Positions 14 through 43,566 are shown, numbered from the stretch's first letter. The stretch: 64,000 nt of DNA from an uncultured bacterium (GCA_964626905.1 CAZVHA010000008.1:7872-71871); one strand, 5' to 3'. Notes: generated from the sequence alone by a model not told the origin. Numbers and translations are program-made.

Positions 14-36
14 AAATGTAAAGCGGCTTTACATTT
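14..36. repeat. 23-bp perfect palindrome AAATGTAAAGCGGCTTTACATTT, copy 1 (11-nt arms, 1-nt centre); ends 2 nt before the ATG at 39
   Basis: Read directly. The identical 23-mer recurs at 32095 and 41682, and as its reverse complement at 61919. Confidence 0.95.
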
Positions 37-39183: not shown

Positions 39184-40596
39184 ATGACGGCAAAATACAA
39201 ATATGGGTTTGTCACCCCCATCGAGTCTGAGGTTTTTCCTAAGGGTTTAAGCGAGGAGACGATACATTCTATTTCCGAGCGCAAAAACGAGCCCGAGTTC
39301 ATGCTGAAATTTCGTTTGAGGGCCTTTCGAAAATGGCAGGAGATGGAAGAGCCCACTTGGCCGAACGTCAAATACCCCCCTATCAACTACCAAGAAATTT
39401 CTTATTACGCTGAGCCTAAGAGTAAACCGCGCTTGGAGAGCCTCGATCAGGTCGAGCCGGAAATTTTGCGCACTTTCGAAAGGCTTGGGATCCCCTTAGA
39501 GGAGCAAAAGCGGTTGACCAACGTGGCGGTGGACGTGGTCTTCGACTCAGTATCGCTCGGCACCACCTTCCACAAGCAGCTCGTTGAGGCTGGGGTCGTC
39601 CTTTGCTCTATTTCTGAGGCGATGCAAAAATACCCCGAGCTGATCGAAGAGTATTTGGGGAGCGTGGTCCCCATCGGGGACAATTTTTTTGCCGCCCTCA
39701 ACTCGGCCGTCTTTTCCGACGGCTCCTTTGTCTATGTGCCCAAAGGAGTTAAGTGCCCCATCGAACTTGCGACCTACTTTAGAATCAATGAAAAAGAGAC
39801 GGGGCAATTTGAAAGGACCCTCATCATCGCCGAGGAGGACTCGTCCGTCAGCTATCTCGAAGGGTGCACAGCCCCCGCCTATGACACAAATCAACTCCAT
39901 GCCGCTGTCGTAGAACTCGTTGCGAAAGAGCGCTCGCAAATCAAGTATTCGACTGTGCAGAATTGGTACGCGGGGGATCCGGTGACGGGGAAAGGGGGGA
40001 TTTACAATTTTGTGACAAAGCGGGGACTCGCTCTGGACGATGCGAAAATTTCCTGGACGCAGGTCGAAGTGGGCGCTGCCATTACTTGGAAATATCCGAG
40101 CTGTATTTTGAAGGGAGATCGGTCGGTGGGAGAGTTTTATTCTGTGGCCCTCACCAATGGGAAAATGCAGGCCGATACAGGGACCAAAATGATCCATATT
40201 GGCAAAGAAACCCGCTCGACGATTGTCTCGAAGGGGATTGCGGCAGACGAGTCGCACAACAGCTACCGCGGCCTCGTCAAAATCATTCCAAAGGCCAAAA
40301 ATGCGAGAAATTATACCCAGTGCGATTCAATGCTGGTCGGGAATCGGTGTTCAGCCAATACGTTCCCCTATATTGAAGTTGGGGGGAATAGCGCTCAGGT
40401 AGAGCATGAGGCGTCGACTTGCAAAATGAATGAGGAGCAAATTTTCTACCTGCAAAGCCGGGGAATTGCAAAAGAGGATGCGATCGACCTGATTGTGAAC
40501 GGGTTTTGCAAAGAGGTGATCCGCGAGCTCCCCTTGGAATTTGCCCAAGAAGCACAAAAATTATTGGCGTTGAAATTAGAAAATTCGGTGGGATGA
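39184..40596 (+). CDS. sufB: Fe-S cluster assembly protein SufB
   Basis: [20 protein letters not shown], and a C-terminal [15 protein letters not shown]. Confidence 0.95.
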
Positions 40597-40597
40597 G

Positions 40598-41290
40598 ATG
40601 TTAGAAGTTAAAAATCTTTGTGCGGAAATTGAGGGAAACCAGATCTTGAGGGGGGTCAATCTCACCATCGAAAAGGGAGAGATCCATGCAATCATGGGGC
40701 CCAATGGCGCTGGCAAATCGACCCTCGCCAAAATCTTAGCAGGCCACCCTGCCTATGAAGTGACGAGTGGCGAGGTGTGGTTCAAGGGGCAAAATCTTTT
40801 CGACATGGGCCCTGAAGAGCGGGCCAAAGCGGGGCTGTTTATGAGCTTTCAATACCCGCTCGAAATTGCAGGCGTCACAAATCGGCAATTTTTGGAAGCT
40901 GCGATGAGAGCCCTTGGCAAAGAAGGGGATATTTTGGGCGAGATGAAAAAATTGCAGATGCGCGAGGAATTTTTGGAGCGCAATCTCAATGAGGGATTTT
41001 CCGGCGGAGAGAAAAAGCGCAATGAAATTTTGCAAATGGCTCTATTTCAACCCGATCTCGCCATCCTCGATGAGACCGACTCGGGGCTCGATATCGATGC
41101 GATCCGGATCGTTGCGAACGGGGTCAACTCCATGCAAAGAAAAGACAATGCCCTTCTCATCATCACCCACTATCAAAGGCTCCTCGAATACATTAAGCCC
41201 GATTTTGTCCACGTGCTCTCCTCTGGGAAGATCATTCAAACGGGAGGAGCAGAACTGGCCCTAACCCTCGAAGAGAAGGGCTATGCTTGA
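40598..41290 (+). CDS. sufC: Fe-S cluster assembly ATPase SufC
   Basis: GPNGAGKSTL (Walker A), FSGGEKKRNEILQ (signature), ILDETDSGLD (Walker B), ITHY. Confidence 0.95.
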   Translation: MLEVKNLCAEIEGNQILRGVNLTIEKGEIHAIMGPNGAGKSTLAKILAGHPAYEVTSGEVWFKGQNLFDMGPEERAKAGLFMSFQYPLEIAGVTNRQFLEAAMRALGKEGDILGEMKKLQMREEFLERNLNEGFSGGEKKRNEILQMALFQPDLAILDETDSGLDIDAIRIVANGVNSMQRKDNALLIITHYQRLLEYIKPDFVHVLSSGKIIQTGGAELALTLEEKGYA

Positions 41291-42404
41291 ACATTTTTGG
41301 GCCGATATTTTAGATCCCAAAGATCCCCTTGTCCAATATCGGAAAAAAGGGTGGGATCGCTTTGAAGAGATCGGCCTGCCAAAGCCAAAACAAGAGGCGT
41401 TTCAATACCTTTTGAAAAAACTCTCCTTCCCCAAGCCCGCTGAAAGGAAAGAGATTGAAAAGAATGCGCTAGAGGGCCTCGTTTTTGTCGACGGATTTTT
41501 TGAGGAAAAACTTTCTCGCGTAGAGAGCCCGATCATCTGCATCAGCCTCGAAGAGGCGCTCCGGAAATATAGCCTTTTTCTACAGAATCGGCTCAGCTCC
41601 TCTTTTGCAGCGGAAAAAGATCCCTTTGCCGCATTGAATAGCGCCCTCTTTGGACGGGGGGCATTTCTCTTTATCCCATCTAAATGTAAAGCGGCTTTAC
41701 ATTTGACCCAAATTTACACTGGCGATGAGATGGCAAATGGGCGTCTTCAGATCTATTTGGGGAAAGAGGCAAAGCTCACGTTGACGCAAGAATCAAGTGG
41801 GCAAAGCGGCTTTGCCAATTTGGGGATCGATATCGTGCTCGACAGCAATGCCCATTTGACCCTGATCGATCGGGCAGAGGGCGATTTTCAAGCGATTCGG
41901 GCCACAGTGAAGAAAGGGAGTGCGTTGAAAGGGGTATTTTTGGGCCATCACTTGCGGACATCGGTGCGGGTGGAGCTGATGGAAGAATTTGCCGAGACAA
42001 CTCTTTTGGGCCTTGCCCGTTTGGAAGGGGATCAAGAGCGCCATTTTCACACACAGGTGGAGCACAGAGCCCCTTCGACCCGTTCGCAGCAGCACTTTAA
42101 AAGCGTGCTCAAAGATAAAAGTCGCTTTTCGTTTGAAGGGAAAATTTTTGTCTCCTCTGAGGCGCAAAAAACAGAAGGGTATCAAAAAAATAGCAATCTC
42201 ATTTTGAGCGATGAAGCGCTCTCTTTCGCAAAACCGAATCTCGAGATTTTTGCCGACGATGTTAAAGCATCGCACGGCTCCACAACAGCCAGTCTCAGTG
42301 AGGAGGAACTTTTTTACCTTCGCTCTCGGGGAATTCCACGCAATATGGCCCAAGAGTTGCTCATCCAAGGATTTTGCAAGGAGATCACCGACCATGCGCC
42401 GTGA
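41283..42404 (+). CDS. sufD: Fe-S cluster assembly protein SufD, carrying palindrome copy 3 in-frame
   Basis: Position between sufC and sufS. C-terminal DVKASHGSTTASLSEEELFYLRSRGI is typical of SufB/D. Confidence 0.85.
   Translation: MLEHFWADILDPKDPLVQYRKKGWDRFEEIGLPKPKQEAFQYLLKKLSFPKPAERKEIEKNALEGLVFVDGFFEEKLSRVESPIICISLEEALRKYSLFLQNRLSSSFAAEKDPFAALNSALFGRGAFLFIPSKCKAALHLTQIYTGDEMANGRLQIYLGKEAKLTLTQESSGQSGFANLGIDIVLDSNAHLTLIDRAEGDFQAIRATVKKGSALKGVFLGHHLRTSVRVELMEEFAETTLLGLARLEGDQERHFHTQVEHRAPSTRSQQHFKSVLKDKSRFSFEGKIFVSSEAQKTEGYQKNSNLILSDEALSFAKPNLEIFADDVKASHGSTTASLSEEELFYLRSRGIPRNMAQELLIQGFCKEITDHAP
41682..41704. repeat. 23-bp palindrome, copy 3, inside sufD
   Basis: Exact 23-mer, read as KCKAALHL in the sufD frame (41682-41705). 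Confidence 0.95.
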
Positions 42405-43566
42405 ATTTCCCATCTTCAAAAAACATCCCGGTTTCATCTATCTCGACAGCGCTGCGACAGCGCAAAAGCCGAAATGTGTGATCGATGCCCTTGTGAAGTT
42501 CTACTCTCAAGATTACGCAACGGTTCATCGAGCCCTCTACAGCCATTCAATCAGAGCGAGTGAGCAGTACCATTTAACAAGAGTTGAAGCGGCCCATTTT
42601 TTAAATGCAGATCCCGATGAGATTGTCTTTACCCGCGGGACGACCGATGCGATCAATTTGGTCGCGCAAAGTTACGGCAGGACATTTTTAGAGCCGGGAG
42701 ATGAGATTCTCATCTCCGAAATGGAGCACCATTCCAACTTTGTTCCCTGGCAAATGCTCGCGAAAGAAAAATCGCTCTCTTTAAGGCTCATCCCGATGGA
42801 CGAAAGAGGGGTACTTCAATGGGAAGGGCAAATCACACCGAAGACTAAAATCGTCTCCCTTGCCCACGTTTCCAACGTGACGGGAACGATCAATCCGATC
42901 CGAGAAATTGCCGCCGCCGCCCACGCCGTTGGAGCGAAGATGGTCGTCGATGGAGCGCAAGCGGCACCTCATATGAGGATCGATGTCCGTTCGCTAGGCG
43001 CCGATTTTTACGCTTTTTCAGGACATAAATGTTATGGCCCAACGGGAGTTGGCATCCTCTTCGGCAAAAGGGAGCTGCTCTTCTCGATGCCTCCGGTTCA
43101 AGGAGGGGGGGATATGATCGCATGGGTAGAAGAAGAGGGGAGCGCCTATCAATCACCTCCGATGCGCTTTGAAGCGGGAACGCCGATCATCGGATCGGTC
43201 ATTGCCCTGCGCTCGGCGCTCCAATTTGTGCAAAAAAGTGCATATCATCTGGGCCCCCACCCACTCTTAGAATATGCGACCCAAGAACTCAAGGCTATAG
43301 CGGGGTTAAGAATCATTGGAACAGCTCCAGAAAAAGGGCCCATCATCACATTTCACATCGACGGCATTCACCCGCTCGATCTGGCCACATTTCTCGATCT
43401 CAAAAACATCGCCATTCGCTCGGGCCATCTTTGTGCGCAGCCACTTCTCAAAAAATTTGAGCTCGATGCAGCTGCCCGCGTCTCCTTCGGCATCTATAAC
43501 ACATTAGAAGAGATCGATTCCCTCGTCGAAGCTGTGAAAGAGGTTGTCGCCGTCGTGCACGCGTAG
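42394..43566 (+). CDS. sufS: Cysteine desulfurase SufS (class V aminotransferase, group II)
   Basis: IYLDSAATAQKP, the SGHKCYGPTG pyridoxal-Lys context, and RSGHLCAQP (catalytic Cys loop). ATG at 42394 overlaps the end of sufD. Confidence 0.9.
   Translation: MRREFPIFKKHPGFIYLDSAATAQKPKCVIDALVKFYSQDYATVHRALYSHSIRASEQYHLTRVEAAHFLNADPDEIVFTRGTTDAINLVAQSYGRTFLEPGDEILISEMEHHSNFVPWQMLAKEKSLSLRLIPMDERGVLQWEGQITPKTKIVSLAHVSNVTGTINPIREIAAAAHAVGAKMVVDGAQAAPHMRIDVRSLGADFYAFSGHKCYGPTGVGILFGKRELLFSMPPVQGGGDMIAWVEEEGSAYQSPPMRFEAGTPIIGSVIALRSALQFVQKSAYHLGPHPLLEYATQELKAIAGLRIIGTAPEKGPIITFHIDGIHPLDLATFLDLKNIAIRSGHLCAQPLLKKFELDAAARVSFGIYNTLEEIDSLVEAVKEVVAVVHA

What the first reader, a model, noticed from the sequence alone, without database searches (positions are those of the whole stretch)
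41682..41705. Palindrome copy 3 inside sufD, within the beta-helix core region
The local protein sequence is [24 protein letters not shown]. In SufD proteins I know (for example E. coli), the segment after the ..VP motif is a native strand of similar length that reaches the ..HIT.. region. The repeat-encoded peptide therefore seems to stand in for structural sequence in an essential Fe-S assembly protein rather than sitting in a disposable loop. This argues that the peptide is structurally tolerated or even selected.
Basis: partly seen in the sequence, partly recalled or inferred. Interest (0 to 1): 0.62.

Follow-up and report, generated by a model that had tools for sequence, protein, structure and literature searches.

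The report
Genome-wide DNA palindrome encodes a SufD strand
A 23-base DNA palindrome found across the genomes of a group of uncultured chlamydiae has overwritten, not been inserted into, the codons for a structural beta-strand of the essential iron-sulfur protein SufD, and for a long time selection has held the DNA letters fixed, not the peptide.

Summary
AAATGTAAAGCGGCTTTACATTT lies at 41682-41704, in frame in an intact sufD of a sufBCDS operon, and reads KCKAALHL. It occurs four times in the window where chance expects none.

The peptide is not a loop insertion and sufD is not a pseudogene.
- It aligns without gaps to E. coli SufD residues 150-157.
- In a confident AlphaFold model it forms the turn and the start of the long strand that opens the beta-helix.
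- The nearest SufD without the palindrome has 10 native residues (KCQIEMPLQM) where this one has 8.

New results:
- The palindrome arose once, at the base of a well-supported SufD clade, and is still present in 59 of 113 homologues.
- In ten orthologues (mean 67% protein identity) the codons TGT AAA GCN GCT TTA are identical. The only exception is the palindrome's centre base. Elsewhere only 5 of 131 invariant residues keep a single codon.
- Where the palindrome is lost, synonymous and non-synonymous changes both appear.

So the DNA or RNA is what is selected, and the peptide is a tolerated by-product. What reads the palindrome is unknown. The copies in pyrC and rmlD also replace native sequence without changing protein length. 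A roughly 60-nt hairpin module inserts beside the palindrome in those two genes but never in sufD.

The parts
41682..41704 (.). Palindrome P, copy 3: AAATGTAAAGC-G-GCTTTACATTT. The core conserved across sufD orthologues is TGTAAAGC-N-GCTTTACA (41685-41701).
41682..41705 (+). Eight sufD codons, K134-L141 (KCKAALHL). K134 and C135 lie in the turn. K136-L141 are the first six residues of strand E136-145.
41283..42404 (+). sufD, 373 aa and intact. H331 corresponds to the essential E. coli SufD H360.
39184..40596 (+). sufB
40598..41290 (+). sufC (ABC ATPase). It overlaps the sufD start by 8 nt.
42394..43566 (+). sufS (class V aminotransferase). The likely start is the ATG at 42394, which overlaps the sufD end by 11 nt, as in relative L262.
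32095..32117 (.). Palindrome copy 2, in frame (KCKAALHL) in rmlD/rfbD (dTDP-4-dehydrorhamnose reductase).
61919..61941 (.). Palindrome copy 4, in frame (KCKAALHL on the - strand) in pyrC (dihydroorotase).
14..36 (.). Palindrome copy 1. It ends 2 nt before the ATG at 39 of a long ORF and is probably intergenic.

Best explanation
The sufD palindrome is an old copy of a short palindromic DNA signal, P. Its consensus is C-AAATGTAAAGC-S-GCTTTACATTT-G, with a functional core TGTAAAGC-N-GCTTTACA. P is shared by one clade of uncultured environmental Chlamydiae, and the sufD copy sits at the same position in their orthologues. In the ancestor of that clade P overwrote the native codons at the N-terminal edge of the SufD beta-helix. 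KC-QIEMP-LQM (10 aa) became KC-KAA-LHL (8 aa). This was not an added insertion. (Shown.)

The frame-1 translation keeps the native turn residues K and C. It shortens a five-residue bulge to three small residues, and it replaces LQM with the similar strand residues LHL. SufD therefore still folds, and it keeps its one known essential residue. (Shown by model and alignment; function inferred.)

Since then, selection has acted on the nucleotide sequence of both arms and has left the centre base free. (Shown.) This most likely reflects a sequence-specific reader that recognises P, either a dimeric DNA-binding protein or a hairpin-binding protein. The part of SufD it occupies has no known catalytic residues.
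For: - Alignment: gap-free to E. coli SufD 150-157.
- Structure: AlphaFold model has pLDDT 95.2. Residues 136-145 are a strand in blocks with pLDDT 97-98. TM-score is 0.80 to 2ZU0_B and 1VH4.
- Sister comparison: the model of the sister without the palindrome shows turn PPKC, bulge QIEMP and strand L142-L147.
- Single origin: the 9 palindrome-bearing SufD sequences form one clade (support 100/99). The palindrome-free L064 is their sister (100/99).
- Persistence: 59 of 113 homologues carry CKAAL, and 88 of 113 have the 8-residue form.
- Codon test: TGT, AAA, GCT and TTA are fixed in 10 of 10 orthologues (mean 67% aa identity). The centre codon is GCG, GCT or GCA. Only 5 of 131 other invariant-residue columns keep one codon (Fisher p = 4.5e-5). 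The two longest all-identical nucleotide runs in the gene are the two arms.
- Loss: the SSF52 sufD site reads AAA TGC GAA GCT GTT TTG, with both synonymous and non-synonymous changes. That genome still holds exact P copies elsewhere.
- All-or-none pattern: 78 exact copies, 6 with one mismatch (outermost base only), 1 with two mismatches. No compensated variants were seen in 0.92 Mb. These loci were partly ascertained by exact match.
- Sparseness: in about 75 kb around sufD in 9 relatives of the palindrome-bearing clade, the only cores are the sufD ones.
- Length: P-bearing PyrC and RmlD are not longer than P-free orthologues (medians 403 vs 407 aa and 280 vs 281 aa).
- Essential residues: only H360 of E. 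coli SufD was found essential by systematic mutagenesis (PMC5571166). It is conserved here as H331.
Against: - No reader protein was identified. The whole-genome tools (genome search, the fetch from genomes) were closed, so I could not take a genome-wide census, map P against the origin and terminus, or search for candidate binding proteins or RAYT genes.
- The way the overwrite happened is unresolved. It could be templated patch replacement, insertion followed by deletion, or point mutation of a proto-site. The sister sequence matches P at only 15-16 of 24 positions once a 6-nt gap is allowed, which is not decisive.
- A composite mobile-looking module inserted beside P sites shows that part of the family behaves like mobile DNA.
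- SufD function with this strand is inferred, not tested.
- An RNA-level reader cannot be excluded.
Confidence: 0.7

Rival explanations
1. Concerted evolution of selfish DNA. P is the REP-like unit of a mobile hairpin family. A dedicated enzyme (RAYT-like or other) or gene conversion between copies keeps all copies identical. The host gains nothing, and the sufD copy survives only because its peptide is harmless.
For: A composite unit of about 88 nt recurs in frame in pyrC, rmlD and other genes. It consists of P, then GGGGNCC, then a second hairpin (CCCAAAGACG-NNN-CGTCTTTGGG), then TGTATTGC-S-GCTTTACAT. It adds about 20 aa, reading ..GVPKDASSLG.CIAALH. Copies show an all-or-none pattern. One contig breaks at a P copy. 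Intragenic REPs are known in print (PMC3733652).
Against: - In sufD orthologues the outer arm bases drift (AAA to AAC, AAT or CAA; TTG to CTC, GTG or ATT) while the inner 17 nt never change. That is the pattern of site-by-site selection, not of conversion from a 25-nt donor.
- P is sparse in relatives: none in about 66 kb of sufD flanks.
- Its positions are conserved between species at 58-70% protein identity, unlike proliferating repeats.
- It has no GTAG or CGTC tag.
- Solo copies add no length.
Confidence: 0.2
2. RNA-level element. The transcribed hairpin (11-bp stem, 3-nt loop) acts in the mRNA, for example as a processing or stability signal, a translation pause, or a binding site for an RNA-binding protein. 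In the sufBCDS transcript it would tune sufD/sufS expression.
For: The hairpin has a predicted free energy of -8.5 kcal/mol (z = -3.2), whereas the native sister sequence does not fold (-3.1, z = +0.7). In phage contigs the 19-nt core sits 3-16 nt upstream of start codons of recurring genes, including a virion protein. Copy 1 ends 2 nt before a start codon.
Against: There are no G-U or compensatory variants among more than 80 copies. The innermost C and G, which would lie in the loop, are invariant while only the centre base is free. The stem is weak and AU-rich and lies inside a translated ORF. No terminator-like or promoter-like pattern was called at P. No RNA data exist; all 9 runs returned look like DNA.
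Confidence: 0.15
3. Peptide-level selection. KCKAALHL is a useful protein module, for example with Cys and His as metal ligands in an Fe-S scaffold, and the DNA identity is secondary.
For: The peptide contains Cys and His in an Fe-S assembly protein. It is invariant in many orthologues.
Against: Synonymous sites are fixed while the centre base is free. The Cys is native, since the sister has KC as well. The same peptide occurs in RmlD and PyrC, where its alignments to solved structures place it in different contexts. Lineages without the palindrome have quite different peptides at this site, such as KCEASIHL, KAKVDLQL and NTSLDLSL.
Confidence: 0.04
4. A simple recent 8-codon insertion into a surface loop, or a decaying sufD pseudogene (the outcomes the first reader named as refuting).
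For: The element is exactly 24 nt and in frame.
Against: There is no length gain; the segment is 2 aa shorter than in the sister and outgroups. It lies in a strand with pLDDT 97-98. The ORF is intact, coupled to sufC and sufS, has the H360 equivalent, and scores PF01458 at 6.6e-56.
Confidence: 0.01

Closest known systems
Intragenic REP elements and Rickettsia palindromic elements (RPE), as surveyed by Di Nocera et al. 2013 (PMC3733652)
   Same: They are short repeated palindromes found inside ORFs of known proteins. They are read in frame, and some form dimers or composites. The PVC superphylum, which includes the Chlamydiales, is among the groups that carry REPs.
   Different: Those elements are insertions that add residues, and they carry GTAG or CGTC tags. 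I know of no report that they stay fixed at synonymous sites at the same position across species (from my own knowledge). P here is a perfect palindrome without a tag. It does not change protein length and it replaces a structural strand. It is sparse, and its nucleotides are frozen across orthologues at about 60-70% protein identity.
Chromosomal protein-binding palindromes inside genes: parS/ParB, Noc-binding sites, matS/MatP, SlmA sites, the KorB operator (from my own knowledge)
   Same: They are perfect palindromes of 13-16 bp, few to about 100 per genome, and often lie inside coding sequence. They are conserved as DNA, and plasmids and phages also carry them. As I recall it, the KorB operator TTTAGC-S-GCTAAA shares the odd centre and the inner AGC-S-GCT.
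   Different: P does not match the parS consensus. No cognate protein is known. P also occurs in a mobile-looking composite module.
DNA uptake sequences (USS of Pasteurellaceae, DUS of Neisseriaceae) (from my own knowledge)
   Same: They are genome-wide signals that sit in coding regions without changing protein length. They impose particular peptides in preferred frames, and related species share them.
   Different: Uptake sequences are 9-12 nt, not palindromic and occur about once per kb, with many imperfect copies. P is 17-25 nt, palindromic, about one per 16 kb or sparser, and all-or-none.

Membership tests
SufD (SUF Fe-S assembly, PF01458) | SUFBD core domain and SufBD N-terminal region | tested here: met
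   PF01458 at 6.6e-56 (residues 148-364). PF19295 at 4e-07 (residues 68-136).
SufD (SUF Fe-S assembly, PF01458) | Parallel beta-helix fold flanked by helical domains, matching solved SufD structures | tested here: met
   AlphaFold pLDDT 95.2. Foldseek TM-score 0.80 to 2ZU0_B and 1VH4, E = 1e-16.
SufD (SUF Fe-S assembly, PF01458) | Essential histidine (E. coli H360) and sufBCDS operon context | tested here: met
   H331 aligns to H360 and is invariant in 113 homologues. sufB, sufC, sufD and sufS are contiguous and overlapping. The role of H360 comes from PMC5571166.
REP/BIME elements mobilised by RAYT | GTAG or CGTC tetranucleotide tag at the foot of the stem | tested here: not met
   In the consensus of 65 copies the flanks are C/G and then random. 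No tag is present.
REP/BIME elements mobilised by RAYT | Predominantly extragenic, with tens to thousands of copies, often as dimers or clusters | tested here: inconclusive
   By my count, about 25 of the 62 copies lie in ORFs of about 190 aa or more; the rest lie in short ORFs or at gene ends. Density is about 1 per 16 kb in the window and zero in about 66 kb of relatives' flanks. Composite P-H2-P2' units exist.
REP/BIME elements mobilised by RAYT | Cognate RAYT (Y1 HUH transposase) gene flanked by the repeats | not testable with these tools
Rickettsia palindromic elements (RPE) | An in-frame insertion of about 100-150 nt that adds a peptide segment to the host protein | tested here: not met
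   P is 23-25 nt. The SufD segment is 2 aa shorter than the native one. P-bearing PyrC and RmlD are not longer than P-free orthologues. Only the composite module adds about 20 aa.
ParB/KorB/Noc-type chromosomal binding sites | A perfect palindrome, low copy number, location tolerated inside genes, conserved as DNA at orthologous positions | tested here: met
ParB/KorB/Noc-type chromosomal binding sites | Binding by a cognate ParB-family protein; match to the parS consensus TGTTNCACGTGAAACA | not testable with these tools
By eye, the P half-site TGTAAAGC matches the parS half-site TGTTTCAC at 4 of 8 positions, so P is not a canonical parS.
DNA uptake sequences | A short non-palindromic core at about 1 per kb, with many near-matches | tested here: not met
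   P is a palindrome, occurs 4 times per 64 kb, and has an all-or-none mismatch spectrum.

The most novel reading that the evidence does not exclude
P is a cis-acting chromosomal address for an as yet unknown sequence-specific dimeric protein, possibly of the ParB/KorB type. It has been kept at fixed positions inside housekeeping genes (sufD, pyrC, rmlD) throughout the history of a chlamydial clade. A DNA-level signal would then dictate six to eight residues of essential proteins, including a beta-helix strand. A group of roughly 40-kb tailed phages carries the same 19-nt core in front of its structural genes and would use or mimic the same reader.
Probability: 0.35. Interest if true: 0.8.

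Novelty: new variant of a known kind. Interest (0 to 1): 0.56.

Why it matters
This is a clean natural case of two codes overlapping in one stretch of DNA. A nucleic-acid signal of at least 17 nt lies inside an essential gene and fixes both the codons and the residues of a structural strand. The protein shows that a beta-helix edge strand, together with a bulge, can be swapped for a foreign 8-residue sequence.

The contrast with pyrC and rmlD gives a direct reading of how much change each site tolerates. Those genes hold the palindrome in stretches that aligned with gaps to solved structures and also accept a 20-residue companion insertion there. sufD never does.

It also marks sufD, pyrC and rmlD as anchor sites for finding whatever reads this undescribed palindrome in environmental Chlamydiae and in a group of unknown phages. 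I found neither the sequence nor the peptide in the paper library.

Tried and rejected
- Rfam search of two loci with the composite element: no match at E <= 1.
- Promoter and terminator scan at P: nothing was called at P.
- Origin or terminus location: the GC skew of the window shows no switch.
- RNA evidence: only metagenome runs that look like DNA hold the stretch.
- Proto-site test for origin in place: the sister and outgroup sequences match P at 15-16 of 24 positions after a 6-nt gap. This is suggestive but not significant.
- Link between the phages and Chlamydiae: no phage-like genes occur in the chlamydial loci except L033, a 2.7-kb contig binned to Ignavibacteriaceae. Phage loci have GC 39% against 47.6% for the chlamydial loci. 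The phage host therefore remains unproven.
It is not a rule.
I modelled the natural palindrome-free sister instead.

Full report
**Observation**

Positions 41682-41704 are the perfect palindrome AAATGTAAAGC-G-GCTTTACATTT. With base 41705 it makes eight in-frame codons, K134-L141 (KCKAALHL), of a 373-aa ORF (41283-42404). That ORF is SufD: PF01458 scores 6.6e-56. It lies in a tightly coupled sufB-sufC-sufD-sufS operon.

The 23-mer occurs four times in the window, at 14, 32095, 41682 and 61919. None was expected in 100 shuffles. The three copies inside genes (rmlD, sufD, pyrC) all read KCKAALHL in the sense frame. Four groundwater metagenome assemblies hold this sufD with no differences.

**Is it a loop insertion or native structure?**

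- phmmer aligns residues 133-150 without a gap to E. coli SufD 149-166, so KCKAALHL aligns with KPLLLMHI.
- The AlphaFold model was built from 113 sequences and has mean pLDDT 95.2. It shows strand 127-131, a turn at 132-135 (P-S-K-C) and a long strand at 136-145. The ten-residue blocks covering 131-150 have pLDDT 98 and 97.
- The model superposes on E. coli SufD (2ZU0_B, 1VH4, 5AWF_B) at TM-score about 0.80.
- Pfam's two SufBD models leave 11 residues between their matches where the profiles have 13 positions. So no extra length is present.

I also modelled the closest orthologue without the palindrome (L064 = P0065; pLDDT 92.6). It has strand 128-132, turn PPKC, a one-residue bridge, the bulge I-E-M-P and strand L142-L147. 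The palindrome codons therefore supply three things:
- the native turn residues K and C;
- three small residues (KAA) in place of the five-residue bulge QIEMP;
- LHL in place of LQM at the start of the strand.

The net change is minus two residues.

The gene is not a pseudogene. It is intact, and H331 matches E. coli H360. H360 is the only SufD residue found essential by systematic mutagenesis (PMC5571166). It is invariant in 113 homologues.

**History**

I took 80 sufD loci from metagenomes and one from genome contigs. The nine palindrome-bearing SufD sequences form one clade (support 100/99). L064 is their sister (100/99), and all outgroups carry the longer native form PK-x-x-I-E-x-P-L-Q-I-L. 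One origin is enough to explain this.

Among 113 protein homologues, 59 carry CKAAL and 88 have the 8-residue form. Several lineages have drifted variants such as KCEASIHL, KAKVDLQL and NTSLDLSL. The two-residue-shorter form also occurs in separate branches that lack the palindrome (L071/L081; L082/L083/L105). So this turn tolerates some variation in length.

**What is conserved?**

Ten orthologues have pairwise protein identity of 58-85% (mean 67%). In all ten the codons TGT, AAA, GCT and TTA are identical. The centre codon varies (GCG 4, GCT 5, GCA 1). In the rest of the gene only 5 of 131 invariant, degenerate residue columns keep a single codon. Mean pairwise codon identity there is 0.46, and all synonymous codons for K, C, A, L and H are in use. 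Fisher's exact test gives p = 4.5e-5. The two longest nucleotide runs identical in all ten sequences are TGTAAAGC and GCTTTACA.

The outer arm bases do drift (AAA to AAC, AAT or CAA; TTG to CTC, GTG or ATT). In genome SSF52, which keeps exact copies elsewhere, the sufD site has decayed to AAA TGC GAA GCT GTT TTG CAT CTG. Both synonymous and non-synonymous changes are present.

The constraint is therefore on the nucleotide sequence of a 17-nt dyad with a free centre, not on the peptide.

**The family**

- Sixty-five copies give the consensus C-AAATGTAAAGC-S-GCTTTACATTT-G with random flanks. No larger element surrounds solo copies.
- The exact 23-mer occurs in 58 stretches of about 17 species-representative MAGs. 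All are Chlamydiota or likely mislabelled chlamydiae, except one 2.7-kb contig binned to Ignavibacteriaceae.
- In 0.92 Mb of chlamydial loci the 19-nt core has 78 exact copies, 6 with one mismatch (always the outermost base) and 1 with two mismatches. There are no compensated or G-U variants. These loci were partly ascertained by exact match.
- Around sufD in nine relatives of the palindrome-bearing clade (about 75 kb) the only cores are the sufD ones. The element is sparse and positionally conserved.
- In long ORFs frame 1 (KCKAALH) is about twice as common as frame 2 (NVK[R/P]LYI). Frame 3 contains TAA, and frame-2 copies often end genes.

**pyrC and rmlD**

The palindrome peptide is present at the same site in 38 of 121 PyrC homologues and 31 of 121 RmlD homologues, and is absent in more distant ones.

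P-bearing proteins are not longer than P-free ones. Median lengths are 403 vs 407 aa for PyrC and 280 vs 281 aa for RmlD. Alignments to solved structures show little or no length excess there: one extra residue in RmlD, and a 2-residue or 11-residue excess just before the palindrome peptide in PyrC, depending on the structure used. Solo copies therefore replace native sequence in general. Different lineages hold the peptide in different registers (for example ECKAALHLGAxxHS against QCKAALHS). In each case the TTA codon falls on a native Leu.

**A companion module (new here)**

In pyrC (P0133, P0170), rmlD (P0266, P0290, P0298, P0328) and other loci (L004, L006, L008, L016, L017, L049), P is followed by three parts:
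- GGGGNCC;
- a second hairpin, CCCAAAGACG-NNN-CGTCTTTGGG;
- a fixed variant, TGTATTGC-S-GCTTTACAT, which has two T-T mismatches.

The variant's centre lies 57-61 nt from P's centre. The module adds about 20 residues in frame, reading ..GVPKDASSLG.CIAALH. This part of the family looks mobile. None of the 120 closest SufD homologues carries it. That fits the view that the sufD site is structurally constrained, while the pyrC and rmlD sites appear to lie in more length-tolerant stretches.

**Phages**

The 19-nt core, with any centre base and without the AA/TT extension, occurs in more than 120 IMG/VR contigs, many of them 38-40 kb. It is mostly intergenic. It often sits 3-16 nt upstream of the start codons of recurring small ORF families and of a phrog_280 virion protein.

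Their host is unproven. Their GC content is 39% against 47.6% for the chlamydial loci. The only phage-like fragment in the chlamydial set is the contig binned to Ignavibacteriaceae.

**Mechanism**

Several observations point to a sequence-specific reader and away from mere hairpin stability:
- the dyad symmetry with a free centre base;
- invariance of the innermost C and G, which would lie in the loop of a hairpin;
- the absence of compensatory variants;
- conservation of position across species.

The RNA hairpin is only -8.5 kcal/mol. No promoter or terminator pattern is called at P.

A dimeric DNA-binding protein is my preferred reader. From memory, the KorB operator TTTAGC-S-GCTAAA shares the odd centre and the inner AGC-S-GCT. 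That is a lead, not a test. A hairpin-specific enzyme of a mobile-element system, or an RNA-binding protein, remain live rivals.

How the native codons were overwritten is unresolved. The options are templated patch replacement, insertion followed by deletion, or mutation of a proto-site.

**Limits**

I therefore have no genome-wide census, no mapping against the origin and terminus, and no search for candidate readers.
- No RNA data exist for this organism.

**Literature**

Neither the sequence nor the peptide occurs in the searchable paper library. Intragenic REPs and RPEs are described there as insertions (PMC3733652). I found no description of a length-neutral palindrome that encodes a strand and is frozen at synonymous sites.

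Noticed in passing
L259:1983-2070 (pyrC of a relative); also L049:323-400, L017:6459-6541, L260:~690: A composite module of about 88 nt. It consists of the palindrome, then GGGGNCC, then a second hairpin CCCAAAGACG-NNN-CGTCTTTGGG, then a fixed imperfect variant TGTATTGC-S-GCTTTACAT with two T-T mismatches. It is inserted in frame, adding about 20 aa (GVPKDASSLG...CIAALH), at palindrome sites of pyrC, rmlD and other genes. It is never seen in sufD.
   Followed up: partly
L139-L258 (IMG/VR contigs): The 19-nt core ATGTAAAGC-N-GCTTTACAT occurs in more than 120 viral contigs, many 38-40 kb with GC about 39%. It is mostly 3-16 nt upstream of start codons of recurring small ORF families (109 aa in 13 cases, 121 aa in 9 cases) and of a phrog_280 virion protein. 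The host is unproven.
   Followed up: partly
L033 (DATKLQ010000235.1, binned to Ignavibacteriaceae): This 2.7-kb contig carries the exact 23-mer. It is a fragment of that phage group (up to 69% protein identity to L248), not a bacterial chromosome piece.
   Followed up: partly
L031:4367-4657: Three palindrome copies lie 144 and 124 nt apart with identical flanks (..ricKCKAALHLnfst..). This is a tandem array that contains the palindrome. Part of the locus is masked with N.
   Followed up: no
window 14-36: Copy 1 ends 2 nt before the ATG at 39 of an 798-aa ORF, which leaves no room for a Shine-Dalgarno sequence. This resembles the phage arrangement, where the core sits just upstream of start codons.
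   Followed up: no
window 41643-41672: A terminator-like hairpin plus T-run (GCCCTCTTTGGACGGGGGGC ATTTCTCTTT) lies inside sufD, 20 nt upstream of the palindrome. It covers the conserved GRGAFLF codons and is probably a chance match.
   Followed up: no
L029, L039, L051 (all from one MAG, CAZVVT01): All three palindrome copies share a left flank, GTGGAACAATTGATTCTCC. This suggests a second, larger repeat unit that carries the palindrome in that genome.
   Followed up: no
L071:4144: A chlamydial relative outside the palindrome-bearing SufD clade has a core copy (tTGTAAAGCCGCTTTACAT) downstream of sufD, probably in sufS.
   Followed up: no
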